Below are positions 1-23,482 of a stretch of 25,197 nucleotides of DNA, one piece after another. The translations under genes were made by a program, and so were the position numbers. Origin of the DNA: an uncultured Candidatus Saccharibacteria bacterium (GTDB lineage: Bacteria > Patescibacteriota > WWE3 > UBA101185 > UBA10185); contig CAZTXE010000001.1 in the NCBI GenBank assembly GCA_964617305.1, forward strand, positions 1 through 25,197. The letters run 5' to 3'. The notes under the pieces are model-generated. The model searched no databases. It was not told the DNA's origin and saw only the letters and a list, made by a program, of their open reading frames with translations. Position 1 is the first letter of the stretch; each line of letters opens with the position of its first letter.

Positions 1-3000
1 TAGGAGTTTCATTTGCAGTGGTTGTTAGTGATTCTAATTTCATAACAGGACTCGTCGTCCCGATGCCGACGTTGCCGTCCCCATCAACAAACACATAATC
101 TTCCCCAGCTGAACCCTCCAAGTGAAACATATCCTCTGAAGCAGATTGCGTTATCTGTAGTAATGAGTCAGGTGTTGTTTCATTGATGCCGACGTTGCCG
201 TTTGTTGATTCAACCCTCATTCTTTCAGTCCAAGTCCTAGCACTTCCAATTGTTGTCGCTGGAGAAGTTTCTACAATAAATCCTGCTGCTCCAAATTTTT
301 GTTTTACAGCGGCATAATTACCGAAGGAATTATTGCTACTATCAGTATGACTGACAAGATATGGTCCTATGGTCGTGTTTCCTCCAAATGCCAATGATTG
401 GTCAGAGGCAAATTGGTTCGTAATCATTGAGTTTGTATTATTAAATACTGTCAATTTTTCAGCTGGCTCCGTCGTCCCGATGCCGACGTTTCCTGTGTCT
501 CTTTCTACCGTCAACCTAGTGTTAATTGTTGCTCCATTTCCAGATTTTAAATAAAAATTATTATCTCCTCCGTCAAGCATCATTCTAAAACCTCCAGAAT
601 TAGCATCACCAAAAGCTCCATTCGCCTCTGAGTTTGCTTCTGTTAAATCAAATATGGCATCATTTCCACTTAGTGTGTGTATCAATAAATTTGAATCTGC
701 CGCATTAGGACTATAAATATTTAACTTACTTAACGGACTCGTCGTCCCGATGCCGACGTTGCCCTGAATATACATTGGGCCTGCTGTTCCAGTATAATCA
801 TCAAGAAAATTATATCCTCTTGATTGAAATTCTAATGGTTGAGTATTGTAGGAGGTCATTGTTGTTTTTCCTCCAGCAGAAATACTCATATCAAAATTGT
901 TTGAATATGCATCAAGGAAATTACCTGACCCAGTTGTATAAAATTTATTTGCTTTTATACTGCCATCCACTTCTAACTTTTCCCCAGGACTCGTCGTCCC
1001 GATACCGACGTTGCCTCCTTCTAAAAGAGTTATACCTATGGCATTCCCTGCAATAAGCTGAAGTGCAGAACTTCCATATTTGCCTCCAATCACCATATCA
1101 AGATTTGAAGAACCAGTTACTAAACTATCTGTTGCTCTGGCTACTCCTATAAGACCCATTTCAGTGCTATCAGTATCTGAAAAAGAAATTGCACCTTCAA
1201 CACTTGCTTGTTCTTTTAATTCCAACATTCTGCTCGGACTCGTCGTCCCGATGCCGACGTTGCCGGCTGAGGTATCAACGTAGAGCTGATTCGTATTCAC
1301 TGCGAAGTCGCCAGTGGTGGAGAGATTTACGTTTACACCTGAGCCAGCGACTGGTTCCAGCGTCAATGCTCCTACCTGGGTCGTGATCTTAGGTGCGGCC
1401 GATGCATTTGCTCCAAAGGTCAGGGTAGGCACTGTTGCAGTGTCATCTGTGTCTATTTCAAAGGTATTGTTAGAGGTGCCGCTTGTAACGCTAGGTCCGA
1501 TTAAGCTATCAGCTGTCAATGAGCCAGCTACGGTGACATTGCCGGATTTATCCATGGTAAACTGAGAAGTTCCGTCGCCATCCTGGACAAGAAAGAGATT
1601 TAAATCCTTATACGCGGTCGCCCCTGCTGCGCCAGCAGTATGATTTGAATCCAGAGTCAAGCTAGTGGCAGAGCCGATCGCAGAGACTGTAAAAACCTCG
1701 CTTCCTATCTTTATGGCATCCCCTACTGCAAGCTCTGTGTCAAATGCAGTGGTTGCGCCTGTCACTGCAGCTTCATTGATGGTGACTGTGACTGTGCCTG
1801 TGAGGGCAGTAGTAAGGTTACCTTTTATGTGGACATTGGCTGCAGGGGCAGTGGTACCGATACCGACTCTACCAGTTCCCTGCATAATCCTCATTGCCTC
1901 AGAATTTCCTGGACTAAAGGCTATGTGTTCATTGCCTCCGTCGGACTTTATTTCATGATAAAGATGTCCGGCCTTATAAGGGACAATCTTAATAGCGCCT
2001 GCGCCAACACCTGAACTTACACGCAAACCATCACTTCCCACTATATCTAAATCTGTTGCAGGTGTGGTCGTGCCGATGCCGACGTTGCCATTCCCTTGAA
2101 TAGTCATTTTAACATTATCATCATCCACATCAACTTTTGTTGCAAAGTGAATATCTCCTGCGTCGTTATTATATCTATTTCCAATAAATACCTCTCCTGT
2201 TCCTGGATTTTCCCAAAGTGCCAATCCCTGCAAACCTGCATTTGCACCAACCCTCAAATAATCAGTTTCTCCATTTAACCAATTATACCTAATATCACTT
2301 ATTACATCTAACTTCGCCGCTGGACTAGTCGTCCCGATGCCGACTCGCGTGTTCTGCACCCCTCCCGTCCCATCGGCTTCTCCGTAGATCTTCATCACAG
2401 GAGTCGAGTCGAGTGAGAAGCTGTAGCTTTCCTCGGTCCCCGCTGCGGGTACGGAGGACACAGGCATGTTAATCATTGTCACCGCACCACTGTCCTCTGT
2501 CAATCCGATGGTCCCGATGTTCAGCGCGCCTCCAACTTCGATTTCGTTGTTGGTGTTTACTTTAAACATATTCACGACTCCCGTTCCCGCCGAGTCCACT
2601 CCAGCGAACCACGCATCGTTTGGTATTTGAATGTAGTCAGTGGTGTCTTCCACTAGTCGCATCATTTCTACCCCTCCCGAGATGAGGGAAAGCTGGTCAG
2701 TACCCGACGAGCCCATTCCAGTGTCATAGTCAGATAACACAGCAAAACCAGGATTTGTTGCAGTTGCGTATTCATCCAATATAACATTTCCACCAGTTCC
2801 TGATTCCACACGACCCGCTAAAATGTTAAATGTATTTGTGCCAGCTATTCCAAAACTTAAAACATCATCTGATGATTCGTATAAACCTGTATCTCCATCT
2901 CCGAAAGCTAACGATGGTGTCGCAACAGCTCCAATAACTCCCGCAGGACCAATAATTACTTGATCGGTTGTGGCGGTTCCTGTTTCCACGAGTCGAAGCA

Positions 3001-6000
3001 TTTCTTTCGCTCCGGCGATAAGGGAAAGCTGGTCGCCAGAGTTGGTCCCCATTCCTGTATCAGAGTCTGAACTATTTGGAACGACGCTCGGCGTGGTTGC
3101 TGATGGGGTAGACCGAATAAGTTTCGAACCAGTAACCGTTCCTATTCCGGTAGATGTTATGGTGAGGACATCCGTACCGGCTGCTGAAAAGTGAAGATTA
3201 TTATCGACACTTTCCCAAAATCCCGTATTACCATCTCCAAACGCTAAATTGGGTGCGGCAGCGGTTCCAGTGAGATCCGCTTGTGGATTAATGATGAATT
3301 GCTCGGTCGTTGCTTCAGAAGCTCGAGCGATTTCTTTCGCTCCGGCGATAATAGAAACTTGATCGGCGGCGTTTGCTCCGATTCCGGTATCTATATCATT
3401 ATTAGAAGGCATAAAGACAGGATTTGTTGCCGTTGGGTCTTCGTTTCTAATGACGGCTCTACCAGCTGAACCGGCTTCAAAGGAAGTTGATGTAAACAAG
3501 AACGGAGCCGTACCCGCAACTGCAATATTGAGTTGATCATCACTCGCTTCATAAAACCCGGTATCTCCATCTCCAAAAGCTAAAGTAGGAGCAGCAGAAT
3601 GGTCTCCAGGAGTTTCATTTAAACTTAACAAACCGAGTGGACTCGTCGTCCCGATTCCGACGTTTCCAGAACTGTCGATTCTCAATCTTTCGGTACCGTT
3701 TGTATAGAGAGCTGTTATTCCGTGTGTCCAGTTCGTATCATTCTTACTTGTTTGACCAATTTTGAAGAGTCCCGCAGCGGCTCCAGTTGTTCCTGGTGTA
3801 TAGCTCATATGAATAGCATTGTCGTGGGAGTAGTTTTTCGACAAAATCCATTGTTGTGTAGCGGCACCATCTCCATAAAGCCAGAGGGCATTATTGATAG
3901 CTTTTATTGTGTAGGGGTCTGTCGCGGCGGTACTTGCCAATTGGATGTCTCCGCCATCAACGTGCAATTTCGTTGCCGGACTCGACGTCCCGATCCCGAC
4001 GTTACCTGCAAAATAATTCGTGCCAGCCACAGAATAAATACCATAATTTGTAGTTCCTCCTGTTGCTGAGAAATAACCTGCTGTAACTGTATTATTTGTC
4101 TCACCTACCGCTACGTTATGTGATGCATAAACATTTCCGCCTGTTTGAGTTCCACCTGATGAATCTGCTCTTGCTTTTACTCCTATTAGTGTTCCATTAA
4201 AATCAGTAACAGCAGCACTCAGTTCTGCAAGAAAATAACCTGCGTTTTCTTCATTACCGCCATTACCACCTAATATAGATGATATTTTAGTATACCCAAA
4301 GACTCCTATATTTAATCTTCCTCCTGTGTTTACTCCTGATGCTCCAACTACTCCTATAGAACCATAAGGACTCAAAGAAGGAATTGCTATAGAAGATCCT
4401 TTTGCTATTCCAATAATTCCTGGAGGTGAATTTACTGTTGTAAAGAAATTATTACTTTTTGCAACTCCATTAACTGTAAAAGCCCCACCCTCTGAACCTA
4501 ATATTGTTCCTTTTGTATGTAGTTTTTGAGCAGGACTCGCCGTCCCTATTCCCACATTCCCCGTACTATCCTCCACAAATATCCCTGCTCCGCCGTCTTC
4601 ATACAGCTTCAACCCGTCGGCTCCTGTAGCCGTCACTTGCTTGGTGGTGATGTTGTCGGCGGCAATTTCGATGTTTCCGAGATTTGAAGTTCCGCTTACA
4701 GTTAGATCACCCGCAATAGTTGTGTTCCCTGAATTATCAATCACAAATTGATTGGTTCCATCTCCATCCTCTACAGCCAGTAAGTTAGGGTCAGTGTAAG
4801 CAGTGGCTCCAGTTGCTCCTGCTGAGTGAGCTGAATCAAGTGTTAAGCTCGTAGCACTTGCAATGGCTGAGATAGTGAATATTTCACTTCCTATTTTAAT
4901 TGAATCACCTACGGCTAGTTCTGTGTCAAATGCTGTAGTAGTTCCTGTTACGGTTGTAGATGCTGCTGTAACATCTACTGTACCTGTTAATGCTGTGGTT
5001 AAACTACCTTTTAGATGTAATTGTGCTGTTGGGGAGGTGGTGCCGATGCCGACGTTGCCACTTGTTGAAGCAAGTATTACATTCCCAACAGTTGTTTCTA
5101 TTGATCTGAAATCAGCAGCAGAAGTAAGGGTCGGATTAATATAAAGCCCCCTAGTGATTCCATTTGCTCCACCAGTCTGATTAACGGTTCCAGTATATGT
5201 ATAACCATTAAATACTCCAGTTCCTGAACTTGGTTGGAAATTTCTAGTATTTGTAAAAACATTCAATGTTCCACTGGTGAGTATCCCAGTTCCTGTAGCA
5301 CTAAAAGTAGAATTCGATGATACTACTGAAAAACTATTCGCAGCTGTAGCAGTTCCACCACTACTAACTTTAAAATAACTACTACCATTTAATTGCAAGT
5401 CCATCATATTCCCGCCAAATCCACTTGGAGCATTAACACCTAATCCTGTTCCAGCAGTAGACCAACCAGTAGAAGTTGCCCCAGATGGCTCAATAAGTAA
5501 ATATGGTTTGGTTGTTGTAGCATCTCCACCTGTTCTTATCCAAGTACCATCACCCTTTATCCCTGGTTGTGATAATGCTCCATTTATAGCCACATGTAAT
5601 CCTGCCACCGGACTCGTCGTCCCCACCCCGACATTCCCTTCAACTAACAAACCATTCGTAGGGGCTGTATTTGTTCCAGAGTAAGTGGCACCGATTACCG
5701 CACCCCCTTCAACATCGAGAGTGTTCGTCGGACTCACCGTCCCAATCCCCACATTCCCACTCTTATCAACAATAAACTTTCCAACAGAGTCTCCGTTATC
5801 AAGTTCAAATAAGTTAGGGTCAGTGTAAGCAGTGGCTCCAGTTGCTCCTGCTGAGTGAGCTGAATCAAGTGTTAAGCTCGTAGCACTTGCAATGGCTGAG
5901 ATAGTGAATATTTCACTTCCTATTTTAATTGAATCACCTACTGCTAGTTCTGTGTCAAATGCTGTAGTAGTTCCTGTTACTGTAGTAGATGCTGCTGTGA

Positions 6001-9000: not shown

Positions 9001-12000
9001 TATTTGCAGACGCTCCCCCCAATATGGTTATCAATGCGTTTGTAGTGGTATTATTATTTGCCTGAAAGACGGCAACTGTATTATTCAAATAGGATGGTTC
9101 ACTTCCTGCACCATCGACTACATGCAATTTTTTACTCGGACTCGCCGTCCCAATCCCCAAGTTTCCACCACTGTTTATATAGGAATCTCCCGAACCAATA
9201 AGTTGTATTACCTGTGCGTTTACATTCGCTCCATCATTATAAATTCTAAATATTCCATTTCCATTACTATCGCTCCCCAACATTCCAGAGAATTTATTAT
9301 CAGCCTGTCTTAAATAAACATCCGCACTGTCTCCAACAACATCTAATTTTGCCGTTGGACTCGCTGTCCCAACCCCTGTATATCCTTTTTTGTCTACCAC
9401 TACCTTGCTCACTCCGTCTCCATTGTCCACCGCGAAGAGGTTTGGATCTTTGTACGCTGTTGCTCCCGCCGCCCCCGCCGTGTGCGTGCTGTCGAGGGTA
9501 AGGAGAAGATCATTTGGTGCCGTTGCCACCGTGAACACTTCACTTCCAATCTTAATCGCATCCCCAATCGCAAGCTCTGTGGTAAAGAGTGTTCCCACCC
9601 CCTCTACCGAGTTTGAACTCGCACTCACGGTTACGGTTCCCGTGAGGGCGGTGGAGAGGTTTCCTTTTGTGTGAAGACCTGCAGTAGGAGCTATTGTGTT
9701 AATACCAATACCACTTGTTTCAATGTTCAATCTATCTATAGCTCCCGTTTGAATTCTCATATAATTCGTATTTCCAATGATTCTGGTCCCCGTAGTTCCC
9801 CATTTGAGAGAGGAATTTTCTGCCAACCTAATCTCTCCCGCTACTTCTAACTTCGCCCCTGGACTCGTCGTCCCGATACCGACGTTGCCAGAGGAATCAA
9901 TCCGCATTCTCTCTGCTTGACCTGCCCAAAGAACCATATCATCTGTCTCCGCACCCAAAAGAACTTCAGTAGTCCCAGCAGTATTAGAATCCTTAAAAGC
10001 CAAATAAGCATTTGCATCTCCACTTTCGATAAGCCCCAAGGTATTAGTTGTTGCATGGTATACATGCAAAGGATTTGAAGGACTCGTCGTCCCGATACCA
10101 ACGTTTCCAGTAGGAAAATATGCTTTAGAGTTTACGCTATCCAATCTTAACCACTCAGTTCCTCCTACAATTAAAGAAAGTAAATCTGAACCCGCACGAC
10201 CAATACCAGTATCTCCATCACTCTGGAATGTAAAGGCGGGTGCTGTTGCACCTGGTGCTGTTGATACTATTCTTCCACCAGTTGAAACACTCGCCCCCAT
10301 AGCACCTGAAAATATTTTAAATTGCTCAACTCCTGCAATATCAATTCTTATATCATCATCTAAACCCTCGTAAATTCCCGTATCCCCATCTCCAAAACTT
10401 AAACCTCCCGCCAGAGAACCAATAGTTCCATTCATATTCAAAATAGATTGAGGAGTTGTCGTTCCGATACCGATGTTCCCACCAGAAGTAATCACCATTT
10501 TCTGTGTAGCAGCTTCTGAAGCTCCTGTTTTAAATATCAATTCCGTCGCATTGCTACTCGCAGAGAACGTTCCTTCGGCCACCGCTTCAATGGCGGCTCC
10601 TACTAAGATCGCATCCGTGCCATCAGATTCCAATGGTGCATCAAATTCAATCTTTCCCAAGACATCACCATCCACAACCGTGAGTTCTTCCGTCGAGAGA
10701 TCAACTGCTCCCGGAGCTCCCGGAGGACCTGAGACATTCAGAAGTGCAGTAGGACTCGTCGTTCCTATTCCGACGTTTCCTGAGGAATCAATTCTCATCA
10801 TCTCAGAAAAATTCCCAGAGTAGAAAGATAAATGAGCACCATCGTTCGCAGTCCCAACTATCATTTCGTCACTATTATGATTCCATCTCAATGTTGCACC
10901 AACACTATCAGAGGGACTTCCAAATTGAATTCCAGATGTACTTGCATCAGGAGAAAGGATACTAAGTCCAGCATTCCCACTATTTTCAACAATTAAATCA
11001 TCACCATCTGCATGTGCAGTGATAGTTCCCGCCGTTGCCGTGTGAGCATGGAGTGTGCCATCAGGACTCGTTGTCCCGATTCCGACGTTACCGGTTGTGT
11101 GTGCGATTACCAAACGGGTAGTATCGCCAGAGGTGCCTTCTCGAATTCCAAAAAATGAATTGGGGACATAGTTTGTTCCATCCCCAACTCCTGCCATCCA
11201 AGAAAAAGATCCTGCACGATTGTAGGTAATCATAGGAATAGCACTTTTTACTTCCAAAGTAGAATTTGGCGTGGCCGTCCCAATACCCACCTTCCCCGCA
11301 CTCACATCCACAAACAGATCTGTAGAATCCACCGCTAAATCATCCGCGAGAGTGAGCCCTCCGGTCGCTGAGAAATCCGTCCCAGCGGCCCCAATGTTTA
11401 TAATTTTACTATTCGCCATATCAAGATCCCCAGAGGTAAATTCCATTGCCCCTTGTACATCCAGTGTTCCTGTAACCGTTACATTGTCGAGCACCATGTC
11501 GTCTCCCAAGAGCACATCGCCATCGACTTCCAAGTTTCCCGCGACATATAAATCACCGTCACCGGTTGCAAGCGTCGAAGTTCCGGTTCCAATATTTACC
11601 AATCCGTCCACAGTAACCTTCTTACTCGAGAGCCCTCCTGAACCATCCGCCAGTCCTATGATTTTTAGGATTGGATTACTGTCGATTGAGATCGCTGTGC
11701 TGTGCTCCGTCCCTGCTGTCGATGATGCTGAAACGGGTTGATTGTAGAGCGTCGTCTGCCCCGCATCTTCTTTTGCCACGAGTGTTGAAATCTCGATGTC
11801 TGGATGATACCCCGCCCAGAGGTCTTGGATTTCATTTACAGAAAGAATCCGATTGTAAACGCGGAGGTCTGAAATGGAACCGTCGAAAGAAAGCGCTCCC
11901 GTACTATCATTTCCAATGATAACATTCGTTGTTCCTGTCGCTGGAGTTCCTGAAGCTTGATCAGCAGAACCATTGAGAGTTGGGGCGGTGTCGGTATCTC

Positions 12001-14818
12001 CAATATAGAAATTCACCGCTCCATCAGGAGCTCTTGTTGCTGACACAAACTGCCACGTATTCAAAGAGATGGAATTGTTTGCAGATGCTACCAACGTAGA
12101 ACCGTCAGATCTAACAACCAATCTTTCATCAAATTCTCTTACCGAAAACCAAAATTTTCCATTGCCAACTATTCTACTTGTATCTGCAACAGGACCTTCT
12201 CCCCATCCACTTGGGTTAATCCATCCCGCTATTGTCACCGCTCCTGTTCCGATCATGTCGCCTCCCGTATCAATCCGTGTATCCGCTCCGTCGAATACCA
12301 TCGCTTGTCCTGAGTCGTATTCTCGGACAGAAACATTATCAATCGTTCCCACGAAGTCAGCGCTTGCCACAACTCCACCGCTCGTTTGCGTAGCAGTGAT
12401 AATCTCTGTGTAGGTTCCGGCCGTTGTCTGCGCTACCGTTCCATCGATCGCGGTGATGCTTCCCGCTGTTACACTATCAATCGTAAAAGTAACGGCATAT
12501 TTTTGCCCACTGGTAATCGTGGTCGCTTCGACGAGATTTGAAACAGCGGTTTGTGTTCCATCACTGATTGCCGTTTCTGATGAGATGCTCCACCCATCTC
12601 CACATGTCCAGTTGACGGCACAGGCTGTGAAAAATATTTCATCTGTGATGACCTGTGTATCAAGTCCTTTGTTTCCATAGTCCGCTGTGAAGACGGCACT
12701 TCCCGTCAATGTTCCGTGGTTTGCATTTCCAGTTCGGTCCGCAATCGCACCGCTCGTTGTTTGAGAATCTTCACTGAGTTTCCAGTGAGAAATCAATCCT
12801 TTGTTGTTGTCAGTTTGCAATCCAGATCCGAGTGCCACCATATCATCTCGACTTCCTCTGAACACATTTTTTGTTCGACTCCCCGAAGAGTTCACCGATT
12901 TAATCCATGTGTTTAGTGGTAATTGAACATATCCCGTTGTTCCTTTCACCATCCGGAGAATCTCCGATCCTCCTGCAATGAGGGAGAGTTGGTCAGCGAC
13001 GTTCCATCCAAGACCTGTATCCGTGTCGCTCTTTGTTGGGAGTATATTTGGATTCGTTGCGGATGGGTCTTCTGCAATGAATGCTGACCGAGAAGAACTC
13101 AGTCCTCCAAAAGTCGTTCCATCCATTACCCAGTTTGAAACCCCTGCAATTGAAATCTTTATTTCATCATCCGAACTTTCATAGAACCCCGTATCTCCAT
13201 CTCCAAATGACAATGTCGGTGTTGCCGCATCATTTTCCAGTGGAAGGTGGAGTTTACTGGTTGGTGTTCCCACTCCGATTCCGATGTTCCCCGCTGCGCC
13301 CACTGTCATCCGTTCCACACCCGTTGTGAAGAAACGCAGTTGATCGTTGTCGGCTCCGGCAGAATCTTCTGCACTCACGTAAGTGTCTCTGTCAACATCA
13401 ATAAGTCCTCCCAATGCCCCCCAAGTACTCACGCTGTATCCTTCAAATTGTGCAATTGTGGAATTGTATCGCATAGTCCCTGTCGTTGGCGTTCCTGGTC
13501 TCTGAGCCGTAGTACCTATCGGAACTGTTATACCATCCGTCGCACTGATGTGGAACGTTGTCGATGGACTTGTTGTTCCGATTCCCACATTTCCATTTCC
13601 TGAAATTCTCATTCGTTCGGCCACTGCCGCTCCGCCAGTCATCGTCTTGAACGTAATCGCTCCCGCTTCTGCAGTATCGGTGACATCAGTTACAATTCCT
13701 TCAATCACTCCCACCACTTCGTTGTTTCCGTCCGCTGTTTCTACTTCGAAATCAATCCCCGTTCCGAGTCCCGCCACTGGTGTACTCGTTGAAGTCCGAG
13801 TCAATCTGAGACCTGACACGGCAGAGGAGGTAAGCGCTCCTGTTTCTTCTGCGTGGAGAAAACGATCGGGAGCCGTTGTCCCAATTCCCACATATCCGGT
13901 ACTCATAATTCGCATCGCTTCGGTCGCTCCCGCGGTGTGGAACCGCATGGATGAATTAATGTGGTCATACCGAATCCGTCCTCGGTTGTCATCCTCTGGA
14001 TCACCGAAGGCAATCTGTCCGTACTTCGTATTTGGTGTGAGAAGAGTGATTCCCGCATTGTCGCTGTTTTCGAGAATCAGTTCATCTGCATTTCCGTCTG
14101 ACAACGTTACGCCAGAACTCGCTGAGTAGATGTGTGTTTTTCCTACAGGAGAAGCGGTTCCAATTCCCACAAGTCCTGTGTCTTTTAGGTACAACGTATT
14201 CACTGGAGTTCCATTTTGAACCACTACAACGTTGTCCCCTCCAAATTGGAGCGCGTCATTGATCACATAATCGTCATTATTGTTCACCCCTGTCGTCCAC
14301 CCCTGAGCATCATTTGTAAATTCATAACCAGCATAAGTATCAGTCCCCGTAGACTGAAGTCGCACATAGTTATTGGCATCATCATAGATATGCAAATTAC
14401 GTGATGGTGTCGTTGTCCCAATACCAACGTCCCCATCTTTCGCGACAAATCCCCTCCAACATTCTCCATTTTCAACATTTGTATCACTGTCGTAATCCAC
14501 AAATTTATACCCCGTCGGACACACGCCTACCGAAGGGTCTGTGGTTTCTCCTACATCCAGAAGTGCCTGCGGGGTTGCTATTCCAACCCCAACTTTGTCG
14601 TCGGTGAGGTCTCCCGTGGTGCCGTTATCATCACGAAAAATATTCCGAAGCATATCGGCAATATCATTGAATTCTGAATATAAAAATCGGTCCCCAGCTG
14701 CTTTTACAGGGACCCCACTGATGTCGTTAATCGTTGCAAACCCTGTCGAGACGTACAGCAACCCCATCCCAAGGATGAGTCCTTTTATAGTTAAAACAAA
14801 GGGGTTTTTGTAGGTCAT
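1..14818 (-). CDS. Giant secreted repetitive fibre/adhesin-like protein (at least 4939 aa, 3' end beyond the left edge), with ~40 GNVGIGTTSP-joined modules, a LamG domain and phage tail-fibre-like motifs
   Basis: ATG at 14818 (plus-strand cat 14816-14818) reads MTYKNPFVLTIKGLILGMGLLYVSTGFATINDISG, a signal-peptide-like N-terminus. I hand-translated several kb without finding a stop. The junction motifs I indexed from 48 to 14571 all start at positions divisible by 3, so they share one frame. The track lists no minus-strand ORF in this frame, as expected if no stop occurs before the edge. Confidence 0.93.
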   Translation of the reverse strand, partial: MTYKNPFVLTIKGLILGMGLLYVSTGFATINDISGVPVKAAGDRFLYSEFNDIADMLRNIFRDDNGTTGDLTDDKVGVGIATPQALLDVGETTDPSVGVCPTGYKFVDYDSDTNVENGECWRGFVAKDGDVGIGTTTPSRNLHIYDDANNYVRLQSTGTDTYAGYEFTNDAQGWTTGVNNNDDYVINDALQFGGDNVVVVQNGTPVNTLYLKDTGLVGIGTASPVGKTHIYSASSGVTLSDGNADELILENSDNAGITLLTPNTKYGQIAFGDPEDDNRGRIRYDHINSSMRFHTAGATEAMRIMSTGYVGIGTTAPDRFLHAEETGALTSSAVSGLRLTRTSTSTPVAGLGTGIDFEVETADGNNEVVGVIEGIVTDVTDTAEAGAITFKTMTGGAAVAERMRISGNGNVGIGTTSPSTTFHISATDGITVPIGTTAQRPGTPTTGTMRYNSTIAQFEGYSVSTWGALGGLIDVDRDTYVSAEDSAGADNDQLRFFTTGVERMTVGAAGNIGIGVGTPTSKLHLPLENDAATPTLSFGDGDTGFYESSDDEIKISIAGVSNWVMDGTTFGGLSSSRSAFIAEDPSATNPNILPTKSDTDTGLGWNVADQLSLIAGGSEILRMVKGTTGYVQLPLNTWIKSVNSSGSRTKNVFRGSRDDMVALGSGLQTDNNKGLISHWKLSEDSQTTSGAIADRTGNANHGTLTGSAVFTADYGNKGLDTQVITDEIFFTACAVNWTCGDGWSISSETAISDGTQTAVSNLVEATTITSGQKYAVTFTIDSVTAGSITAIDGTVAQTTAGTYTEIITATQTSGGVVASADFVGTIDNVSVREYDSGQAMVFDGADTRIDTGGDMIGTGAVTIAGWINPSGWGEGPVADTSRIVGNGKFWFSVREFDERLVVRSDGSTLVASANNSISLNTWQFVSATRAPDGAVNFYIGDTDTAPTLNGSADQASGTPATGTTNVIIGNDSTGALSFDGSISDLRVYNRILSVNEIQDLWAGYHPDIEISTLVAKEDAGQTTLYNQPVSASSTAGTEHSTAISIDSNPILKIIGLADGSGGLSSKKVTVDGLVNIGTGTSTLATGDGDLYVAGNLEVDGDVLLGDDMVLDNVTVTGTLDVQGAMEFTSGDLDMANSKIINIGAAGTDFSATGGLTLADDLAVDSTDLFVDVSAGKVGIGTATPNSTLEVKSAIPMITYNRAGSFSWMAGVGDGTNYVPNSFFGIREGTSGDTTRLVIAHTTGNVGIGTTSPDGTLHAHTATAGTITAHADGDDLIVENSGNAGLSILSPDASTSGIQFGSPSDSVGATLRWNHNSDEMIVGTANDGAHLSFYSGNFSEMMRIDSSGNVGIGTTSPTALLNVSGPPGAPGAVDLSTEELTVVDGDVLGKIEFDAPLESDGTDAILVGAAIEAVAEGTFSASSNATELIFKTGASEAATQKMVITSGGNIGIGTTTPQSILNMNGTIGSLAGGLSFGDGDTGIYEGLDDDIRIDIAGVEQFKIFSGAMGASVSTGGRIVSTAPGATAPAFTFQSDGDTGIGRAGSDLLSLIVGGTEWLRLDSVNSKAYFPTGNVGIGTTSPSNPLHVYHATTNTLGLIESGDANAYLAFKDSNTAGTTEVLLGAETDDMVLWAGQAERMRIDSSGNVGIGTTSPGAKLEVAGEIRLAENSSLKWGTTGTRIIGNTNYMRIQTGAIDRLNIETSGIGINTIAPTAGLHTKGNLSTALTGTVTVSASSNSVEGVGTLFTTELAIGDAIKIGSEVFTVATAPNDLLLTLDSTHTAGAAGATAYKDPNLFAVDNGDGVSKVVVDKKGYTGVGTASPTAKLDVVGDSADVYLRQADNKFSGMLGSDSNGNGIFRIYNDGANVNAQVIQLIGSGDSYINSGGNLGIGTASPSKKLHVVDGAGSEPSYLNNTVAVFQANNNTTTNALITILGGASANSTIEFADASDSNAGSITYSHANDSLALRVNAGDRLFIDSAGKVGIGDTSPTAGLTVGDDTGNANATTVDDVYIKGNLEVDGSVWLGDAVSDNLTVQGDLAVSGDTSYDGNWDMNANIITNIGNAGTDFTATGGLTLADDLTVASDLTVNTDKLFVDVSADKVGIGTATPEKKLHVQGSSGNTYLKVHDTRSNTGDEAGVLFSSASGSVTSKGLIAWKETGASAVGDLYFANNNTVDSSDASYSDVKMIIKSGGNVGIGISSPTAQLHTKGGLTTALTGTVSVTAGEASVTGVGTAFTTELAIGDAIKIGSEVFTVATAPNDLALTIDSNHVAGAAGVTAYKDSNLFAIDNGDAVSKMVMDKRGRVGIGTGSPGAKLEINSTASPQLIVGYDGGSPTQISINSVGDFSIDSDNKLQLTADRNIEINTGSGYGIVLNENQFDVDTKIEWASGTGLFVEGSSGNVGIGTTSPGAKLEVNGTINSQTASNVGDYRIGGTAVLTSADGAGTLLTVNSGGFTNVSITGNVGIGTTSPGGKLHVAGSSIYEGAMYWTSGDGATDDWHVQYASGGLRFTEDGVSDNRFFLKDGGNVGIGTTSPGAILHTYVNANSAFAQFEGNAGKWVFGQAGATYAQVAGLYGSHSGIAVTTDGNVGIGTTSPGAKLDVSGTFRATGIAQFDSRADFDAGMEVGGATDTQQTAKINFVEGGSSRMQFIADHLYQQFLINNSTQLGNQIVFGNTNNQDYDHTAQTNPTLYIQSATAPDTANDEWVSITHDVTNAVFGLGSGAYTFPDGNVGIGTTSPSYKLDVTGTAHVSSYLIVDDVLRAGGNLGAGQIGAIIGSTSRDGLKIKGIASQTSDYISIIDSSNAQVLELQSDGDLIVNTGNVGIGTTGPGSPLHVYSSSVNQATFSGYAPSYGAHAVAGSIVIGGYSGGRGIIQYNPNSDLYIDNTASDDNADIYFRTKSTNTRLTIQGSGNVGINTTSPTAQLHTKGGLTTALTGTVAVTAASTTVTGTTTAFDTELAVGDSIKIGSEIFTISAIASATSLTLDSAHSAGATGATAYTDPNLFELDNGDSVGKFIVDKSGNVGIGTVSPTNTLDVEGGAVIGATYSGTNTAPTNGLLVEGNVGVGTTSPVAGLHVAINGALSQPGIKGDGTWIRTGGDATTTKPYLLIEPSGATSTGWSTAGTGLGVNAPSGFGGNMMDLQLNGSSYFKVSSGGTATAANSFSVVSSNSTFSATGTGILTSGTLNVFTNTRNFQPSSGTGVFNGYTYTGTVNQTGGANGITRGLYINPTLTSAADFRSIETTVGNVILASTSGNVGIGTTSPTAQLHLKGSLTTALTGTVDVTAASTTVTGTTTAFDTELAVGDSIKIGSEIFTISAIASATSLTLDSAHSAGATGATAYTDPNLLAVEDGDGTNQFVIDNSGNTTIAGDLTVSGTSNLGNIEIAADNITTKQVTATGADGLKLYEDGGAGIFVEDSTGNVGIGTASPAQKLHTKGTILGSEGGAFTVNGVAKSNNFFTTVNSPPGIIGIAKGSSIAIPSLSPYGSIGVVGASGVNTGGRLNIGVFGYTKISSILGGNGGNEENAGYFLAELSAAVTDFNGTLIGVKARADSSGGTQTGGNVYASHNVAVGETNNTVTAGYFSATGGTTNYGIYSVAGTNYFAGNVGIGTSSPATKLHVDGGDIQLASTAATDPYTIKAINNALWLYGDGAATQQWILSKNYSHDNAIHMSYTPGTTGAAAGLFKIGQTSKNDTNWTHGITALYTNGTERLRIDSSGNVGIGTTSPLGLLSLNETPGDHSAAPTLAFGDGDTGFYEASDDQLNIAVAGTAPFLFTSTSFEAGSAGRAVIRNEDPTATNPVFMPSNNDIDTGIGANAADQVSIIAGAKEIARASEATTEQFIINPQADLTGTAAAPNLAFGDGNTGFWESVDNNLHFSAAGTDVLTITSTGIGTVTGSKLIRSTPSATTPSVVPNSSDSDTGMGTNSGDQLSLIAGAKEMLRLVETGTATTDQVIIGPAGVIGAVATPSLAFGDGDTGLYESSDDVLSFGIAGTNTFNILAGRVESGTGGNVILDEYATATNPGFAVLSDYDTGMGSSGTDQLSLISGGVEMMRLVEDTTDYIQIPNDAWFAGVDSAGTGVVNMFKVNTNNEIEVGGALNIGTIGLTEDSGAVTMINMPVSSVPAAGTEESYSFSLDSTPVMKIYGEADGTGGVQNTRVGIGTTSPAAKLDVISDIRYNWLNGETDYLRVGANAGLQGLALWENPGTGEVFIGNRYNNDAGDIHFATKVDVDDDNVKMTIQGNGNVGIGTTTPATDLDIVGSDGLRVSSGVGAGAIKIVPYKAGHLYHEIKSDGGNEHIAFSPGNSEAMRIMQGTGRVGIGTTAPAANVHIKGNLTTALTGTVTVTINEAAVTGATTAFDTELAVGDAIKIGSEVFTVSAIGSATSLTLDSNHTAGAAGATAYKDLNLFLVQDGDGTSQFTMDKSGNVTVAGSLTADSLIGPSVTSGTSNNTFEIDTDDTATVPTLTFGANASAAPKITTQVGALTLEPVAGSGVNVNLSTTGDFAVNTNQLYVDTSAGNVGIGTTSPSRMLELKEQASVEGAISFSDTDSTEMGLIGVARATDSLVTGSSNLDMVIGGKYGSSALQLIAGNAIGITLLEGGNVGIGTTSPGEKLEVDGSIKANKFYTTGSGNFLDAYSNNFDMSISAGGKTTMTSYNTQPLEFQSRGYNFLDDYTGTAGPMYIQGNVGIGTTSPLSKLNIYSPNAADSNLLIHTLSGNDAIFDLTEANSEANGAFGDANSGGFRMMLDGGDNNFYLKSGNGATINTRLTVERDTGNVGIGTTEPAEKLTVFNNTNSMITNQFASDQSLAFGGNTTIGPYLVSHTDSSNNSFGNYAAVKQKFGAAGFIVETSPATTIGSARTWTERMRVESTNGNVGINETTPDSLLQITQSASEDMFHLEGSAGEDYVFVDGDGNVGIGTTSPVMKLESLTTTANETP
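1570..1875 (-). repeat. Copy E of the ~95-aa TALTGTV..TELAVGDxIKIGSE..LTLDS.H.AGA.GATAY module (boundaries approximate)
   Basis: Translates as KGNLTTALTGTVTVTINEAAVTGATTAFDTELAVGDAIKIGSEVFTVSAIGSATSLTLDSNHTAGAAGATAYKDLNLF. Confidence 0.85.
4781..5059 (-). repeat. Copy D of the ~95-aa module; DNA duplicate of 5810-6088
   Basis: 4781-4912 is identical to 5810-5941 (132 bp, offset 1029); the remainder differs mainly at third codon positions. Confidence 0.92.
5810..6088 (-). repeat. Copy C of the ~95-aa module; DNA duplicate of 4781-5059
   Basis: 132-bp identity with copy D. It also shares the 20-mer ccttttgtgtggagttgtgc (6036-6055) with copy B (8193-8212). Confidence 0.92.
7915..8245 (-). repeat. 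Copy B of the ~95-aa module (boundaries approximate)
   Basis: Translates as KGGLTTALTGTVSVTAGEASVTGVGTAFTTELAIGDAIKIGSEVFTVATAPNDLALTIDSNHVAGAAGVTAYKDSNLF; DNA closest to copy A (offset 1470). Confidence 0.85.
9380..9700 (-). repeat. Copy A of the ~95-aa module (boundaries approximate)
   Basis: Translates as KGNLSTALTGTVTVSASSNSVEGVGTLFTTELAIGDAIKIGSEVFTVATAPNDLLLTLDSTHTAGAAGATAYKDPNLF. Confidence 0.85.
11811..12799 (-). other. LamG/concanavalin A-like domain within the giant protein, interrupted by a ~115-aa carbohydrate-binding-module-like insert (~12311-12660)
   Basis: N-part GLISHWKLSEDSQTTSGAIADRTGNANHGTLTG; C-part AMVFDGADTRID...VTIAGWINP...NTWQFVSAT...FDGSISDLRVYNRILSVNEIQDLW, the Laminin_G_3 pattern. 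The insert reads ...NWTCGDGWSIS...SGQKYAVTFTIDSVTAGSI...FVGTIDNVSVREY. Confidence 0.85.
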
Positions 14819-14945: not shown

Positions 14946-14972
14946 CAACCCGGGTTCTAAGAACCCGGGTTG
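14946..14972. repeat. 27-bp REP-like double palindrome directly after the stop of the VIT-vWA-SLH gene
   Basis: caacccgggttc-taa-gaacccgggttg forms a perfect 12-bp stem, and each arm contains the self-palindrome aacccgggtt. No U-tract follows on the minus strand. Confidence 0.8.
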
Positions 14973-19859: not shown

Positions 19860-19889
19860 ATTTTTAAAAAAACGGATTTTCTACCTCTA

Positions 19890-19919
19890 ATAATGACGGA
19901 AGAAGGCACTCCTTGTCAA
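19890..19919 (-). promoter_or_regulatory. Putative sigma70 promoter for the 780-aa PKD gene
   Basis: Minus strand TTGACA (perfect -35)-18 nt-CATTAT, about 30 nt upstream of the ATG at 19859. Confidence 0.5.
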
Positions 19920-19937
19920 AGTTTTCATAAACGAATT

Positions 19938-22337: not shown

Positions 22338-22351
22338 TGAATGAATGTATT

Positions 22352-22882
22352 TTAAAACCCTCCGCCTCCATTGAGACCTGATCGTTCTCTATGGATCTGG
22401 TCAAGTTCTCCTGGCAGTGCTCTGTTTCCCGCAGGGGCTTCTGTTTGCTGATTTCCATCTCGATCATCGGTTCCCGCAGGGGCATGCACAATAAGTGTAT
22501 TTACCAGTGCGTACGACACCAATACAACCAATATTCCTATCGCGGCAAAGATCACTATCTTTTTCGCTTTTTCGTGCTGACCATCGTCTCCTCCAGCCGT
22601 AACATAAAGAAATCCTGCATAAATCAGAAATGCCACTGCAAGAAGTCCGAGGAAAGAAAGTGCAAAATTAAGCACTCCCACTAAATATACACGTGCTGAT
22701 GTATTGGCTCCAATTCCATCTATTCCAAAATCTGCTGCATCGGGTAATTCAAATTCTCCACTTGGAACTGCTCCTCCAAAATTAAAAATGTCATTGATTT
22801 CGTCCCCTATCCCTCCATACGCCTCTGGGACTAAGAGAGTAAGTGCAAAGAATGCCATGAAAACGAGAAGTATTTTTTTCAT
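22352..22882 (-). CDS. VirB2/TrbC-like (T4SS_pilin-type) pilin, 176 aa
   Basis: Core VLNFALSFLGLLAVAFLIYAGFLYVTAGGDDGQHEKAKKIVIFAAIGILVVLVSYALVN is the two-helix pilin pattern; signal-like N-terminus; ATGA overlap with the upstream pilin. Confidence 0.85.
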   Translation of the reverse strand: MKKILLVFMAFFALTLLVPEAYGGIGDEINDIFNFGGAVPSGEFELPDAADFGIDGIGANTSARVYLVGVLNFALSFLGLLAVAFLIYAGFLYVTAGGDDGQHEKAKKIVIFAAIGILVVLVSYALVNTLIVHAPAGTDDRDGNQQTEAPAGNRALPGELDQIHRERSGLNGGGGF

Positions 22883-23406
22883 AAGAAAGAATGTAAAGAT
22901 GAGATAAGAATAGCCTGTTCAGGACCAAATCGAGCCTGCATGATTGTGTTTACAATGGCATAGGAACCAAAGATAAGAAGAATTCCTATGGCCACCCACA
23001 TAACCACTTTTTTTGCTTTTTCGGTTTGCCCATCATCTCCACCAGCCGTGACATATAAGAATCCTGCAAACACAATCGCTAAGACCGCAATGACAGCGGT
23101 AACCGAAAGGAAAAACTTCATCCATCCGACAAGCAGTCGGTTCATATTTTTTACTTTTGAAACGCCATTATCGAGCCGGCATTTCGCAAGTTTTGCTCCT
23201 TTTTTTATTCCTGGTCCATCAAAAATTGGTTTTTCTTGATCTCCAAAACTTATATCAATATCGATAACATCCCCCAAAAGACATTCTGCATCATCTAATA
23301 CGTCTTCTACATTATCTACGAAACTCGCAAATACCCCTTGAGAATGATAAGAAACACCTCCCCAAAACAGAAGTGCAACGAGAAAGGCAAAACATATTTT
23401 TTTCAT
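22879..23406 (-). CDS. VirB2/TrbC-like (T4SS_pilin-type) pilin, 175 aa (start moved from 23496 to MKKICFAFL at 23406)
   Basis: Core FFLSVTAVIAVLAIVFAGFLYVTAGGDDGQTEKAKKVVMWVAIGILLIFGSYAIVN. The internal Met gives a signal peptide matching its paralogue (MKKI..) and removes the overlap with purL. Confidence 0.85.
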   Translation of the reverse strand: MKKICFAFLVALLFWGGVSYHSQGVFASFVDNVEDVLDDAECLLGDVIDIDISFGDQEKPIFDGPGIKKGAKLAKCRLDNGVSKVKNMNRLLVGWMKFFLSVTAVIAVLAIVFAGFLYVTAGGDDGQTEKAKKVVMWVAIGILLIFGSYAIVNTIMQARFGPEQAILISSLHSFL

Positions 23407-23482
23407 AGTATTTGTGTTTTTCTTATTACAGCACAAAGACCGACCGTTTTCAAACGTTCTTCTTTTTTTGTGTGAAGATTTT

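What the first reader, a model, noticed from the sequence alone, without database searches (positions are those of the whole stretch)
1..14818. Hidden giant ORF of at least 4939 aa that the ORF track misses
One reading frame is open from 14818 to the window edge. The plus-strand track ORFs carrying VVP(M/I)PTFP-type motifs are its antisense shadows. The product is Gly/Thr/Ser/Asn-rich, has a signal peptide, and is built from GNVGIGTT-linked modules. This architecture is known from very large CPR proteins and phage fibres, which often end in a Peptidase_S74 intramolecular chaperone domain. A trimeric beta-fibre a few hundred nm long is inferred.
Basis: partly seen in the sequence, partly recalled or inferred. 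Interest (0 to 1): 0.75.

Follow-up and report, generated by a model that had tools for sequence, protein, structure and literature searches.

The report
Giant phage-fibre-like surface protein, Peribacteria
The window really does hide an unfinished gene for a protein of at least 4,939 amino acids, which is most likely a very long, phage-tail-fibre-like surface fibre that a tiny marine Peribacteria (CPR) bacterium uses to reach and stick to other cells; it is real and well built, but one of many such unannotated giants.

Summary
The minus-strand frame is open for 4,981 codons (14944 to base 2) with no stops, against 144-391 stops in each of the other five frames. The start is ATG 14818, supported by orthologue N-termini and followed by a Sec-type signal peptide. 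No stop comes before the window edge.

The product is a mosaic joined by 36 strict (about 41 loose) G-N-V-G-I-G-T-T-S-P-x-x-K-L-x-V linkers:
- Type A modules (~100 aa). A profile of them hits the crystallised trimeric Bdellovibrio MAT fibres at E 2e-19 to 3e-7.
- Module B, five copies of a small beta-barrel that matches phage tail-fibre models.
- Module C, five FGDGDTGFYE units, also found in phage structural gene clusters.
- Module D, four copies.
- One inserted LamG domain.

The host is a cellular marine Ca. Peribacteria genome (tuf, half-size purL, pilin-like, PKD and SLH neighbours; syntenic MAG contig). It is not a phage.

The closest relative shares the N-terminal domain, is complete at 4,580 aa, and ends in a Cys-containing domain that is not S74. 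About a fifth of relatives carry Peptidase_S74. This gene's end lies beyond the window, so that test stays open.

The trimeric state and the ~190-300 nm length are inferred by homology. Such giants are common in metagenomes. The linker DNA is unusually uniform at synonymous sites.

The parts
2..14818 (-). Giant ORF, 4,939 codons from ATG 14818 to the window edge, with no stop (C-terminus missing)
   Evidence: 0 stops against 144-391 in the other frames. Homologues found.
14735..14818 (-). Signal peptide, aa 1-28 (MTYKNPFVLTIKGLILGMGLLYVSTGFA)
   Evidence: Sequence features. Conserved in P0123 and P0151.
14435..14734 (-). Lineage-specific N-terminal domain, aa 29-128, with the conserved Cys100/Cys120 pair; proposed cell-proximal anchor
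   Evidence: 63% identical to P0123 and P0151, 37% to a Gracilibacteria protein. 89% identical to L002. Absent from viral contigs. No hit in the word-index search.
47..14434 (-). 36 linkers G-N-V-G-I-G-T-T-S-P(-x-x-K-L-x-V). The first 10 codons of each lie at 14405, 14147, 13868, 13565, 13262, 11267, 11063, 10751, 10451, 10079, 9860, 9137, 8852, 8216, 7886, 7595, 7409, 7217, 7034, 6605, 6332, 6059, 5729, 5609, 5030, 4532, 3977, 3638, 2060, 1844, 1235, 986, 734, 464, 170 and 47 (low coordinate, 30 nt each)
   Evidence: They match the capping loop of the MAT beta-helix domains (PMC10769870). Their synonymous sites are homogenised.
10433..11098 (-). Two typical type A modules (aa 1241-1462), the stretch that aligns over its whole length with Bd3182 632-782
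11825..12292 (-). Laminin_G_3 / ConA-like lectin-glucanase domain (aa 843-998), inserted between a C-module tail and module E
   Evidence: Pfam E 5e-14. Duplication map.
9329..9721 (-). Module B copy 1 (aa 1700-1830), small beta-barrel
7859..8251 (-). Module B copy 2 (aa 2190-2320)
5702..6094 (-). Module B copy 3 (aa 2909-3039); holds one arm of the 132-nt exact repeat
4673..5065 (-). Module B copy 4 (aa 3252-3382); holds the other arm of the 132-nt exact repeat
1487..1879 (-). Module B copy 5 (aa 4314-4444), the copy that was modelled
   Evidence: AF2 pLDDT 71-91 in most of the core, residues 24-99. 16 BFVD matches at E<=1e-3 to phage fibre and tail proteins.
12899..13276 (-). Module C copy 1 (aa 515-640), FGDGDTGFYE unit
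10103..10465 (-). Module C copy 2 (aa 1452-1572)
2594..3622 (-). Module C copies 3-5 in tandem (aa 3733-4075)
   Evidence: 127 relatives on IMG/VR contigs, lying in phage structural gene clusters.
11243..11581 (-). Module D copy 1 (aa 1080-1192), NLEVDG...TDFSATGGLTLADDL
8471..8821 (-). Module D copy 2 (aa 2000-2116)
4508..4765 (-). Module D copy 3, partial (aa 3352-3437)
1211..1465 (-). Module D copy 4, partial (aa 4452-4536)
14946..14972 (-). Perfect 12-bp-stem hairpin directly after the stop of the SLH gene, 128 nt upstream of the giant ORF's start
14973..17432 (-). Upstream neighbour: 819-aa protein with three C-terminal SLH domains (weak VWA hit). The pairing with the giant gene is conserved in L002.
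17517..22337 (-). Two PKD-repeat surface proteins (780 and 799 aa)
   Evidence: Synteny in relatives.
22352..23496 (-). Two T4SS-pilin/TrbC-like small proteins
23483..24538 (-). Half-size PurL (AIRS + AIRS_C), a housekeeping marker of the Gracilibacteria/Peregrinibacteria group
25006..25197 (-). C-terminal 63 codons of EF-Tu (tuf), cut by the right edge of the window
   Evidence: Translation. tuf precedes the purL-half gene in relatives.

Best explanation
The gene encodes a giant, Sec-exported cell-surface fibre or adhesin of a marine Candidatus Peribacteria (Peregrinibacteria, CPR) bacterium, assembled from phage-tail-fibre-type building blocks.

Shown:
- A continuous reading frame of at least 4,939 codons with a conserved start and a signal-peptide-like N-terminus.
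- A lineage-specific N-terminal domain (aa 29-128). It is the only part collinear with the paralogue/orthologue P0123.
- About 40 capping-loop linkers delimiting modules. The commonest module type is homologous over its full length to the beta-helix units of the crystallised trimeric Bdellovibrio MAT fibres.
- Interspersed small beta-barrels (B), FGDGDTGFYE units (C) and D units that also occur in phage tail and structural proteins, plus one LamG lectin-like domain.

Inferred:
- After export, three chains intertwine into a thin flexible fibre. Its visible part would measure roughly 190-300 nm, about the diameter of the cell or more.
- The conserved N-terminal domain holds it at the cell envelope.
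- The shaft carries sugar-binding or adhesive inserts (LamG, B, C), and a still unseen C-terminal tip contacts a host cell or particle, as MAT fibres and phage fibres do.
- The C-terminal end (S74 chaperone, lectin-like tip or other) lies beyond the window.
For: - The open frame is far beyond chance.
- Start and signal peptide are conserved in P0123, P0151 and L002.
- PHROG tail-fibre families hit at 4e-87 and 3e-79.
- PDB hits come only to MAT fibres. They are weak with the single sequence and strong with a profile of 14 internal modules: 8OND 2e-19, 8OJN 1.3e-16, 8OML 4e-9, 8OL4 3e-7, each spanning the module from capping loop to capping loop. PMC10769870 describes these as trimeric surface fibres with a V-G-(G/N)-x-x-x-P-x-x-x-L capping loop.
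- Module B model: most of the core has pLDDT 71-91. It matches 16 BFVD phage fibre, tail or baseplate models at E<=1e-3, best 1.5e-6, and the N-terminus of an F2-pyocin side fibre by sequence profile at E 0.0014.
- Module C has 127 relatives on IMG/VR contigs. They sit next to tail protein genes (L003) or between major head and minor tail/tape-measure genes (L010).
- LamG is found by Pfam at 5e-14.
- Cellular context: tuf, half-size purL, pilin-like, PKD and SLH genes on the same strand; uniform composition; no in-frame TGA, so the standard code applies.
- L002, from a Ca. Peribacteria MAG, is collinear with window 17427-14544 at 78% nt identity.
- P0123, complete at 4,580 aa with the same N-terminus, sits on a 484-kb contig among PBP, transketolase and RelA genes.
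- The family is large and includes many giants: 27,345 representatives, and 21 of the best 150 exceed 3,000 aa.
- Peregrinibacteria are reported as enriched in proteins over 5,000 aa (PMC11573180). Peribacteria encode large, strain-variable extracellular proteins (PMC4736985).
Against: - No direct test of oligomeric state, export or surface display was possible.
- No RNA run holds the gene, so expression is unshown.
- The C-terminus, and with it the tip and the true length, is missing.
- The N-terminal domain could not be compared with the MAT N-terminal domain.
- Monomer AF2 models are only moderate (pLDDT about 68). Foldseek against the PDB gave nothing significant for B or C.
- Module order rests on a short-read assembly, and an in-frame misjoin at a linker would not break the frame.
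Confidence: 0.68

Rival explanations
1. Assembly artefact. The window strings together segments of two or more paralogous fibre genes, or has the wrong copy number, because the repeated linkers let a short-read assembler join segments in frame. The true gene would then be shorter or differently ordered.
For: - Logan unitigs of four runs break at every linker.
- The window's left end lies in a linker, and a 288-nt unitig at 2-3x depth runs on beyond it.
- Further unitigs of 1.2-4.6 kb at the same depth carry the same linker but lie outside the window.
- Related assemblies also break near or in this gene.
- Any linker-to-linker join keeps the frame, so openness alone does not prove the order.
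Against: - Exact identity between linkers is only 26-31 nt, well below read length. The single long exact repeat is 132 nt, and its two direct copies allow only a copy-number error of one 1,029-nt in-frame unit.
- The long unique segments recur with 0 differences and even depth in four independent runs.
- aa 1-570 are collinear with P0123.
- Complete genes of this kind and size exist (P0123, 4,580 aa on a 484-kb contig), as do many representatives of 3,000-7,453 aa.
Confidence: 0.12
2. It is a surface protein but not an extended trimeric fibre. It would be a monomeric beta-rich chain forming a coat, matrix or S-layer-associated sheath.
For: - Oligomeric state was not tested.
- Module B folds as an independent barrel in a monomer model.
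- An SLH-domain protein is the conserved upstream neighbour.
- The C-module model is an elongated beta structure without significant PDB match.
Against: - The commonest module is homologous over its full length to domains that are trimeric in four crystal structures (PMC10769870).
- PHROG tail-fibre hits are strong.
- About a fifth of relatives end in the S74 trimerisation chaperone.
Confidence: 0.1
3. It is a delivery filament for a C-terminal effector (CdiA, filamentous-haemagglutinin or Rhs logic), with the unseen C-terminus carrying a toxin rather than an adhesive tip.
For: - The C-terminus is unknown.
- The protein is giant, filamentous and secreted.
- Peribacteria are thought to depend on other cells (PMC4736985).
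Against: - No haemagglutinin, TPS, Rhs or toxin family was hit in 4,939 aa.
- The closest full-length relative ends in a small Cys-containing domain with no Pfam or PDB match.
- Other relatives end in S74 or in lectin-like tips.
Confidence: 0.05
4. It is a phage or prophage tail fibre gene.
For: - PHROG tail-fibre hits.
- Modules A, B and C all have relatives in phage proteins.
Against: - The N-terminus looks like a Sec signal peptide.
- The N-terminal domain is absent from 2.9 million viral contigs. The last 400 aa are absent too.
- The neighbours are tuf, purL-half, pilin-like, PKD and SLH genes, with synteny conserved in related cellular contigs.
- Composition is uniform.
- Its homologue P0123 lies among housekeeping genes.
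Confidence: 0.04

Closest known systems
Bdellovibrio bacteriovorus MAT (mosaic adhesive trimer) fibres: Bd2133, Bd3182, Bd1334, Bd2439 (PDB 8OND, 8OJN/8ONB/8ONC, 8OML, 8OL4; PMC10769870)
   Same: - Signal peptide followed by a conserved N-terminal domain, with the variable part distal.
- Shaft built from ~100-aa beta-helix units bounded by the G-x-V-G-I-G-T-x-x-P-x-x-x-L capping loop (profile E 2e-19 to 3e-7).
- A cell-encoded relative of phage fibres that is displayed on a bacterium which attacks or attaches to other bacteria.
- The family splits into members that end in S74 and members that do not.
   Different: - Five or more times longer (at least 4,939 aa against about 630-1,150 aa).
- The host is a CPR bacterium, a group taken to have no outer membrane (general knowledge, not tested here).
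- Different N-terminal domain, as far as can be told: no PDB or word-index match, and relatives only in Peribacteria and Gracilibacteria.
- Extra internal module kinds (B, C, D, LamG) are repeated along the shaft.
- The tip is unknown.
Phage tail fibres and tailspikes with a C-terminal Peptidase_S74 intramolecular chaperone (K1F endosialidase, T5 L-shaped fibre; PF13884)
   Same: - Same module vocabulary (PHROG 9942 and 18345).
- Weak tblastn hits to marine Synechococcus, Pelagibacter and Roseobacter phage fibre genes.
- Many relatives end in S74.
   Different: - Carries a signal peptide and is encoded in a cellular genome.
- No S74 in the visible 4,939 aa.
P0123 (4,580 aa, Ca. Peribacteria MAG, locus L001) and P0151
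   Same: - Same signal peptide and N-terminal domain (63% identity over aa 1-128), collinear to about aa 570.
- Same module kinds at 45-78% identity.
   Different: - Module order is shuffled after about aa 570.
- Different genomic neighbours (VirD4-like gene and a phosphoribosyltransferase).
- Its linkers are not homogenised at the DNA level.
- It ends in a Cys-containing non-S74 domain.
Large extracellular proteins of Ca. Peribacter riflensis (PMC4736985) and 'huge proteins' of Peregrinibacteria (PMC11573180)
   Same: Same lineage. Large, exported, strain-variable proteins with a presumed role in attachment.
   Different: The proteins highlighted there are Cys-rich (about 7% Cys) and 1,219-3,861 aa long. 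This one has 4 Cys in 4,939 aa and a phage-fibre architecture that those papers do not describe.
Giant Omnitrophota proteins (bioRxiv 10.1101/2023.11.21.568195) and trimeric autotransporter adhesins
   Same: Very long surface filaments of small or host-dependent bacteria. One relative is even labelled 'trimeric autotransporter adhesin' by its source.
   Different: - No C39, S8 or SecA-helicase domains and no antiparallel beta-helix as in the Omnitrophota giants.
- No YadA head, stalk or anchor domains were hit.

Membership tests
MAT (mosaic adhesive trimer) fibre superfamily | Shaft of beta-helix units bounded by the V-G-(G/N)-x-x-x-P-x-x-x-L capping loop | tested here: met
   A profile of 14 internal modules hits 8OND at 2e-19, 8OJN at 1.3e-16, 8OML at 4e-9 and 8OL4 at 3e-7, aligned from loop to loop. 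The protein has 36 strict linkers.
MAT (mosaic adhesive trimer) fibre superfamily | N-terminal signal peptide | tested here: met
   Basic n-region, 15-residue hydrophobic core and a GFA|T site, conserved in orthologues. Judged by sequence inspection only; no predictor was run.
MAT (mosaic adhesive trimer) fibre superfamily | The conserved ~130-aa beta-rich N-terminal domain shared by all 21 Bdellovibrio MATs | not testable with these tools
   No MAT N-terminal sequence or structure was at hand, because the PDB entries cover only the tips. Our aa 29-128 has no PDB match and relatives only in Peribacteria and Gracilibacteria.
MAT (mosaic adhesive trimer) fibre superfamily | Trimerisation along the whole fibre | not testable with these tools
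   Only monomer prediction was available. Trimerisation is inferred from homology to crystal trimers.
MAT (mosaic adhesive trimer) fibre superfamily | Variable adhesive C-terminal tip (S74 or another domain) | not testable with these tools
   The C-terminus lies beyond base 1. The source contig is not in the searchable collections.
Peptidase_S74-terminated phage fibre or tailspike (PF13884) | S74 intramolecular chaperone/protease domain | tested here: inconclusive
   Absent from the visible 4,939 aa (Pfam; ad hoc S74 HMM best E 0.11), but the end of the protein is unseen. Present in 29 of 150 relatives, absent from the closest one, P0123.
Peptidase_S74-terminated phage fibre or tailspike (PF13884) | Encoded in a phage or prophage structural module | tested here: not met
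   Neighbours are tuf, purL-half, pilin-like, PKD and SLH genes. Synteny is conserved in cellular contigs. The N-terminal domain and the last 400 aa are absent from IMG/VR.
Trimeric autotransporter adhesins (YadA type) | YadA head/stalk repeats and a C-terminal membrane anchor | tested here: not met
   No such Pfam or NCBIfam hit in 4,939 aa. The C-terminal anchor could not be seen.
Filamentous haemagglutinin / CdiA type two-partner-secretion filaments | TPS domain and haemagglutinin repeats | tested here: not met
   No hit.

The most novel reading that the evidence does not exclude
The ~30-nt DNA that encodes each linker may be kept uniform on purpose. In this gene the synonymous sites of the 36 linkers are homogenised to AAC GTC GGN ATC GGG ACG ACG AGT. 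These codons are rare in the rest of the same gene. The paralogous gene in L001 shows no such uniformity.

The stretches of exact identity between linkers are 26-31 nt, about the minimal length known to support homologous recombination (established knowledge from E. coli, not tested here).

The linkers could therefore act as in-frame recombination joints. They would let the lineage shuffle, duplicate or swap fibre cassettes within and between fibre genes. That would explain the shuffled module order relative to P0123 and the further linker-bearing unitigs at the same depth. Alternatively, they could be rare-codon pause sites that keep three nascent chains in register at module borders.
Probability: 0.2. 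Interest if true: 0.7.

Novelty: new variant of a known kind. Interest (0 to 1): 0.5.

Why it matters
CPR bacteria such as Peribacteria are tiny and uncultured, and they are thought to live attached to other cells. How they find and hold a host is largely unknown. The 'huge proteins' in which this lineage is enriched have had no functional assignment (PMC11573180).

This analysis ties one such giant, by sequence-profile homology, to solved trimeric fibres of a bacterial predator and to phage receptor-binding fibres. That yields a concrete, testable model: a cell-length adhesive fibre with a conserved anchor, a cassette-built shaft and an exchangeable tip.

It also shows that the same phage-derived module set is reused in many giant proteins: 21 of the best 150 relatives exceed 3,000 aa, out of 27,345 related representatives. 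And it flags nucleotide-level homogenisation of the linkers as a possible mechanism of cassette exchange.

Tried and rejected
- Searching the whole 4,939-aa protein in the word-indexed protein database timed out.
- Searching the last 600 aa there returned only proteins of 1,042 aa or less and no self hit. That index therefore seems blind to giants. The exhaustive representatives search was needed.
- Extending the contig leftwards failed. The last 400 aa are absent from genome contigs, metagenome contigs and viral contigs. The SLH neighbour is not on record. Contigs of related species break before or just inside the gene.
- Logan unitigs show only that at least 233 nt more exist beyond base 1, at 2-3x depth.
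- No RNA run holds the gene.
- The 'joints' reported when contigs were laid on the window have short sides of 20-36 nt that are just the linker. I do not read them as structural variants.
- Weak Pfam hits are spurious or are the B barrel scoring weakly: PTSIIA_gutA, CPxCG_zf, tail_join_FII and DUF6406.
- Profiles of module C found no solved relative.
- Foldseek against the PDB gave nothing significant for the B or C models.
- The C-terminal domain of P0123 has no PDB or Pfam match.
- Genetic code 25 (Gracilibacteria/Absconditabacteria) was considered and rejected: there is no in-frame TGA in 4,981 codons or in any of the six neighbouring genes.
- No tRNA and no Rfam family is present in the window.
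Full report
OBSERVATION

The minus strand of the window carries one frame that is open from 14944 to base 2. That is 4,981 codons without a stop, while the other five frames of the same stretch contain 144-391 stops. With a stop frequency of 0.064 per codon, the chance of such a run is about 1e-142.

The ORF list does not show it because it leaves out ORFs that run off an end of the source.

The product then begins MTYKNPFVLTIKGLILGMGLLYVSTGFA|TIND, and this aligns residue for residue with the N-termini of three independent relatives:
- P0123 and P0151, 63% identity over aa 1-128;
- L002, 89% identity over aa 1-91.

The segment has a basic n-region, a 15-residue hydrophobic core and a small-x-small site. 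It therefore reads as a Sec signal peptide, by inspection only.

The plus-strand ORFs are antisense shadows. All 22 VVP(M/I/T)PT(F/L/S)P motifs sit in one plus frame at a constant 22-nt offset from a GNVGIG site.

Composition is G 13.6, T 12.2, A 9.5, S 9.2, N 6.5 %, with only 4 Cys.

IS THE ASSEMBLY SOUND?

At least five marine or seawater metagenome runs from several studies hold 97-99% of the sampled words of bases 1-6000.

Logan unitigs of four runs reproduce the long unique segments with 0 differences and even depth (a few short alternative contigs near repeats differ by single letters). The segments are 48-762, 1238-3667, 3639-4810, 4922-5839, 5951-6631, 7035-7578, 7599-9886 and 9861-15200. 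The unitigs break at the repeated linkers, as a 31-mer graph must.

Exact identity between linkers is only 26-31 nt. The single long exact repeat is 132 nt (4781 and 5810). Because its two copies are direct, it can only cause a copy-number error of one in-frame 1,029-nt unit.

The left edge of the window lies in a linker. A 288-nt unitig at 2-3x depth continues at least 233 nt beyond base 1. Several further unitigs of 1.2-4.6 kb at single-copy depth carry the same linker but lie outside the window. So the gene, or paralogues in the same genome, goes on.

I could not recover the end:
- the last 400 aa are absent from the genome, metagenome and viral contig collections;
- contigs of related species break before or just inside the gene.

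No RNA run holds the sequence.

ANATOMY

The protein has 36 strict (about 41 loose) linkers of the form G-N-V-G-I-G-T-T-S-P-x-x-K-L-x-V, mostly 60-115 aa apart. Self-comparison resolves the following module kinds:
- Type A: generic units of 85-113 aa, often ending in (E)RMRI-x-S-x-GNVGIGT.
- Type B: about 115 aa, five copies, 56-80% identical to each other.
- Type C: about 112 aa with the motif FGDGDTGFYE, five copies, three of them in tandem at aa 3733-4075.
- Type D: four copies.
- A pair of E segments.

Pfam recognises only a Laminin_G_3 (ConA-like lectin/glucanase) domain at aa 843-998 (E 5e-14). It is inserted between a C-module tail and an E segment; the second copy of that arrangement lacks the insert.

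No Peptidase_S74 is present in the visible part (ad hoc HMM).

WHAT THE MODULES ARE

PHROGs gives tail-fibre families at E 4e-87 and 3e-79, with 9-11 matched stretches.

The only solved relatives by sequence are the Bdellovibrio bacteriovorus MAT fibres. A profile of 14 of the protein's own type A modules raises this to:
- Bd2133 (8OND) 2e-19;
- Bd3182 (8OJN) 1.3e-16;
- Bd1334 (8OML) 4e-9;
- Bd2439 (8OL4) 3e-7.

Each alignment runs from one capping loop to the next. The paper on these proteins (PMC10769870) describes trimeric surface fibres with a signal peptide, a conserved N-terminal domain, beta-helix units closed by a V-G-(G/N)-x-x-x-P-x-x-x-L loop, and exchangeable tips that may or may not be S74. 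The GNVGIGTT linker of this protein is that capping loop.

Module B:
- It is 62-69% identical to a domain in proteins labelled Patescibacteria, Gracilibacteria and Chloroflexota.
- Its AF2 model has a small beta-barrel core (residues 24-99), mostly at pLDDT 71-91.
- It has no significant PDB match.
- It has 16 BFVD matches at E<=1e-3 to phage tail-fibre, baseplate and virion proteins, best 1.5e-6 with 44% identity.
- Its sequence profile touches the N-terminus of an F2-pyocin side fibre at E 0.0014.

Module C:
- It has no Pfam, PDB or isolated-phage match.
- It has 127 confirmed relatives on IMG/VR contigs.
- In L003 the ORF that carries it follows tail protein genes. In L010 it lies between the major head gene and the minor tail and tape-measure genes.
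- The monomer model of three C units is an extended beta structure (pLDDT 68.5) with no significant PDB match.

Type A stretches also give weak tblastn hits to fibre or S74 genes of marine Synechococcus, Pelagibacter and Roseobacter phages.

WHOSE GENE IS IT?

It is a cell's gene, not a phage's. On the same strand upstream lie:
- an SLH-domain protein;
- two PKD-repeat proteins;
- two T4SS-pilin/TrbC-like proteins;
- a half-size PurL;
- the end of tuf.

Composition is uniform across the window. There is no in-frame TGA, so the standard genetic code applies.

The half-size PurL is a conserved family. Its named members are Gracilibacteria and Peregrinibacteria. The order tuf, purL-half, pilin, PKD recurs in relatives that are 80% identical.

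Searching genomes with the N-terminal domain found two loci, both in Ca. Peribacteria MAGs:
- L002 is collinear over its whole 2,977 nt with window 17427-14544 at 78% nt identity. It covers the SLH gene plus the start of the giant gene, and the contig then breaks.
- L001 is the locus of P0123.

P0123 is a complete gene of 4,580 aa on a 484-kb contig, among PBP, transketolase, RelA and VirD4-like genes. It shares the signal peptide and N-terminal domain and is collinear to about aa 570. After that the same module kinds appear in a different order, at 45-78% identity. It ends in a Cys-containing domain with no Pfam or PDB match, not in S74.

The N-terminal domain is absent from 2.9 million viral contigs.

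HOW COMMON?

The exhaustive search with the last 1,200 aa found 27,345 representative proteins at E<=1e-3 and 597 at E<=1e-30. Of the best 150, 21 exceed 3,000 aa, the largest being 7,453 aa.

An S74 HMM was built from Pfam-verified seeds. It finds the domain in 29 of the 150, including 8 of the 21 giants. There it usually lies 100-600 aa before the end.

The literature agrees. Peregrinibacteria are listed among the bacterial phyla enriched in proteins over 5,000 aa, with no functional assignment (PMC11573180). Ca. Peribacter genomes encode large, strain-variable extracellular proteins, S-layer proteins and a sortase (PMC4736985).

MECHANISM

Shown:
- a continuous frame;
- a conserved start and an export-type signal;
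- a lineage-specific N-terminal domain;
- capping-loop modules homologous to trimeric fibre units;
- phage-type B and C modules;
- a LamG insert;
- a cellular Peribacteria context.

Inferred:
- The chain is exported by Sec and three chains intertwine into a fibre.
- The conserved N-terminal domain holds the fibre at the envelope, by analogy with MAT. The partner is unknown; the SLH neighbour is conserved in L002 but not at the P0123 locus.
- The shaft carries potentially sugar-binding inserts, and an unseen tip binds a target cell.

Length can be scaled from the MAT proteins. Bd3182 has 922 aa for about 550 A, and the Bd2133 tip has 370 aa for 142-150 A (PMC10769870). Applied to the visible 4,911 mature residues, this gives roughly 190-300 nm.

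A hairpin with a perfect 12-bp stem directly follows the SLH gene, 128 nt upstream of the start. The giant gene may therefore have its own promoter. None matched the sigma-70 consensus scan.

AN UNEXPECTED DETAIL

The DNA of the linkers is more uniform than the protein requires:

| Residue | Codon | In linkers | Elsewhere in the gene |
|---|---|---|---|
| Asn | AAC | 24/29 | 27% |
| Val | GTC | 23/33 | 12% |
| Ile | ATC | 25/35 | 20% |
| third Gly | GGG | 23/34 | 17% |
| first Thr | ACG | 24/32 | 20% |
| second Thr | ACG | 20/27 | 20% |
| Ser | AGT | 21/26 | 30% |

The 11 linkers of the P0123 gene in L001 show no such uniformity. This points to intragenic gene conversion, or to selection on the nucleotide sequence. 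The linkers could be recombination joints for in-frame cassette shuffling, or rare-codon pause sites. I could not test either idea.

VERDICT

The protein works like a MAT or phage fibre. I do not file it as a MAT member because the defining N-terminal domain, the trimeric state and the tip could not be tested.

It is a new variant of a known kind: much longer, in a CPR host, with its own anchor domain and extra shaft modules. It is one of many similar unannotated giants.

Noticed in passing
36 linker sites between window 47 and 14434 (minus strand): The synonymous sites of the linkers are homogenised to AAC GTC GGN ATC GGG ACG ACG AGT. These codons are rare in the rest of the same gene. The homologous gene in L001 lacks this uniformity. 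Exact identity between linkers is 26-31 nt.
   Followed up: partly
window 1-76 and beyond the left edge: The window ends inside a linker. A 288-nt unitig at 2-3x depth runs at least 233 nt further. Unitigs of 1.2-4.6 kb at single-copy depth carry the same linker but lie outside the window. These are either the continuation of the gene or paralogues.
   Followed up: partly
window 23483-24538 (minus strand): A half-size PurL (AIRS + AIRS_C, 351 aa, matching PurL residues ~389-722) follows tuf directly. It is not a truncation: about 345-aa versions are conserved in Gracilibacteria and Peregrinibacteria and sit in the same place. Where the N-terminal half of PurL is encoded, if anywhere, is unknown.
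   Followed up: partly
window 19938-22882 (minus strand): A T4SS-pilin-like ORF (176 aa) and a PKD-repeat ORF (799 aa) are separate here, 14 nt apart and in different frames. In relatives, one gene of 1,014-1,125 aa carries the pilin domain fused to the PKD repeats. This could be a real split, a frameshift or an assembly error.
   Followed up: no
window 22879-23496 and 22352-22882 (minus strand): Two tandem TrbC/VirB2-like 'T4SS pilin' genes overlap by ATGA, with no other type IV secretion gene in the window. The P0123 locus has a VirD4-like coupling protein just upstream of its giant gene.
   Followed up: no
window 14946-14972: A perfect 12-bp-stem, GC-rich hairpin lies immediately after the stop of the SLH gene. 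It reads as terminator-like on both strands.
   Followed up: no
window 24539-25005: About 470 nt between tuf and the purL-half gene hold no ORF, tRNA or Rfam match. The same gap, 340-540 nt, is seen in relatives.
   Followed up: no
P0133, P0163, P0174, P0130, P0196 (relatives, not in the window): In giant relatives the S74-like domain is not terminal. Another 100-600 aa follow it, including DUF5011/Ig-like and acidic or Thr/Pro-rich tails. These would be released if S74 cleaves itself.
   Followed up: no
P0121 (best-scoring relative, 1,481 aa): It carries an Mtd_N (major tropism determinant) domain at its N-terminus. P0194 ends in ...GFRCAK, which from memory resembles the end of C-type-lectin/FGE-type domains that diversity-generating retroelements target. 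No reverse transcriptase gene is present in the window.
   Followed up: no
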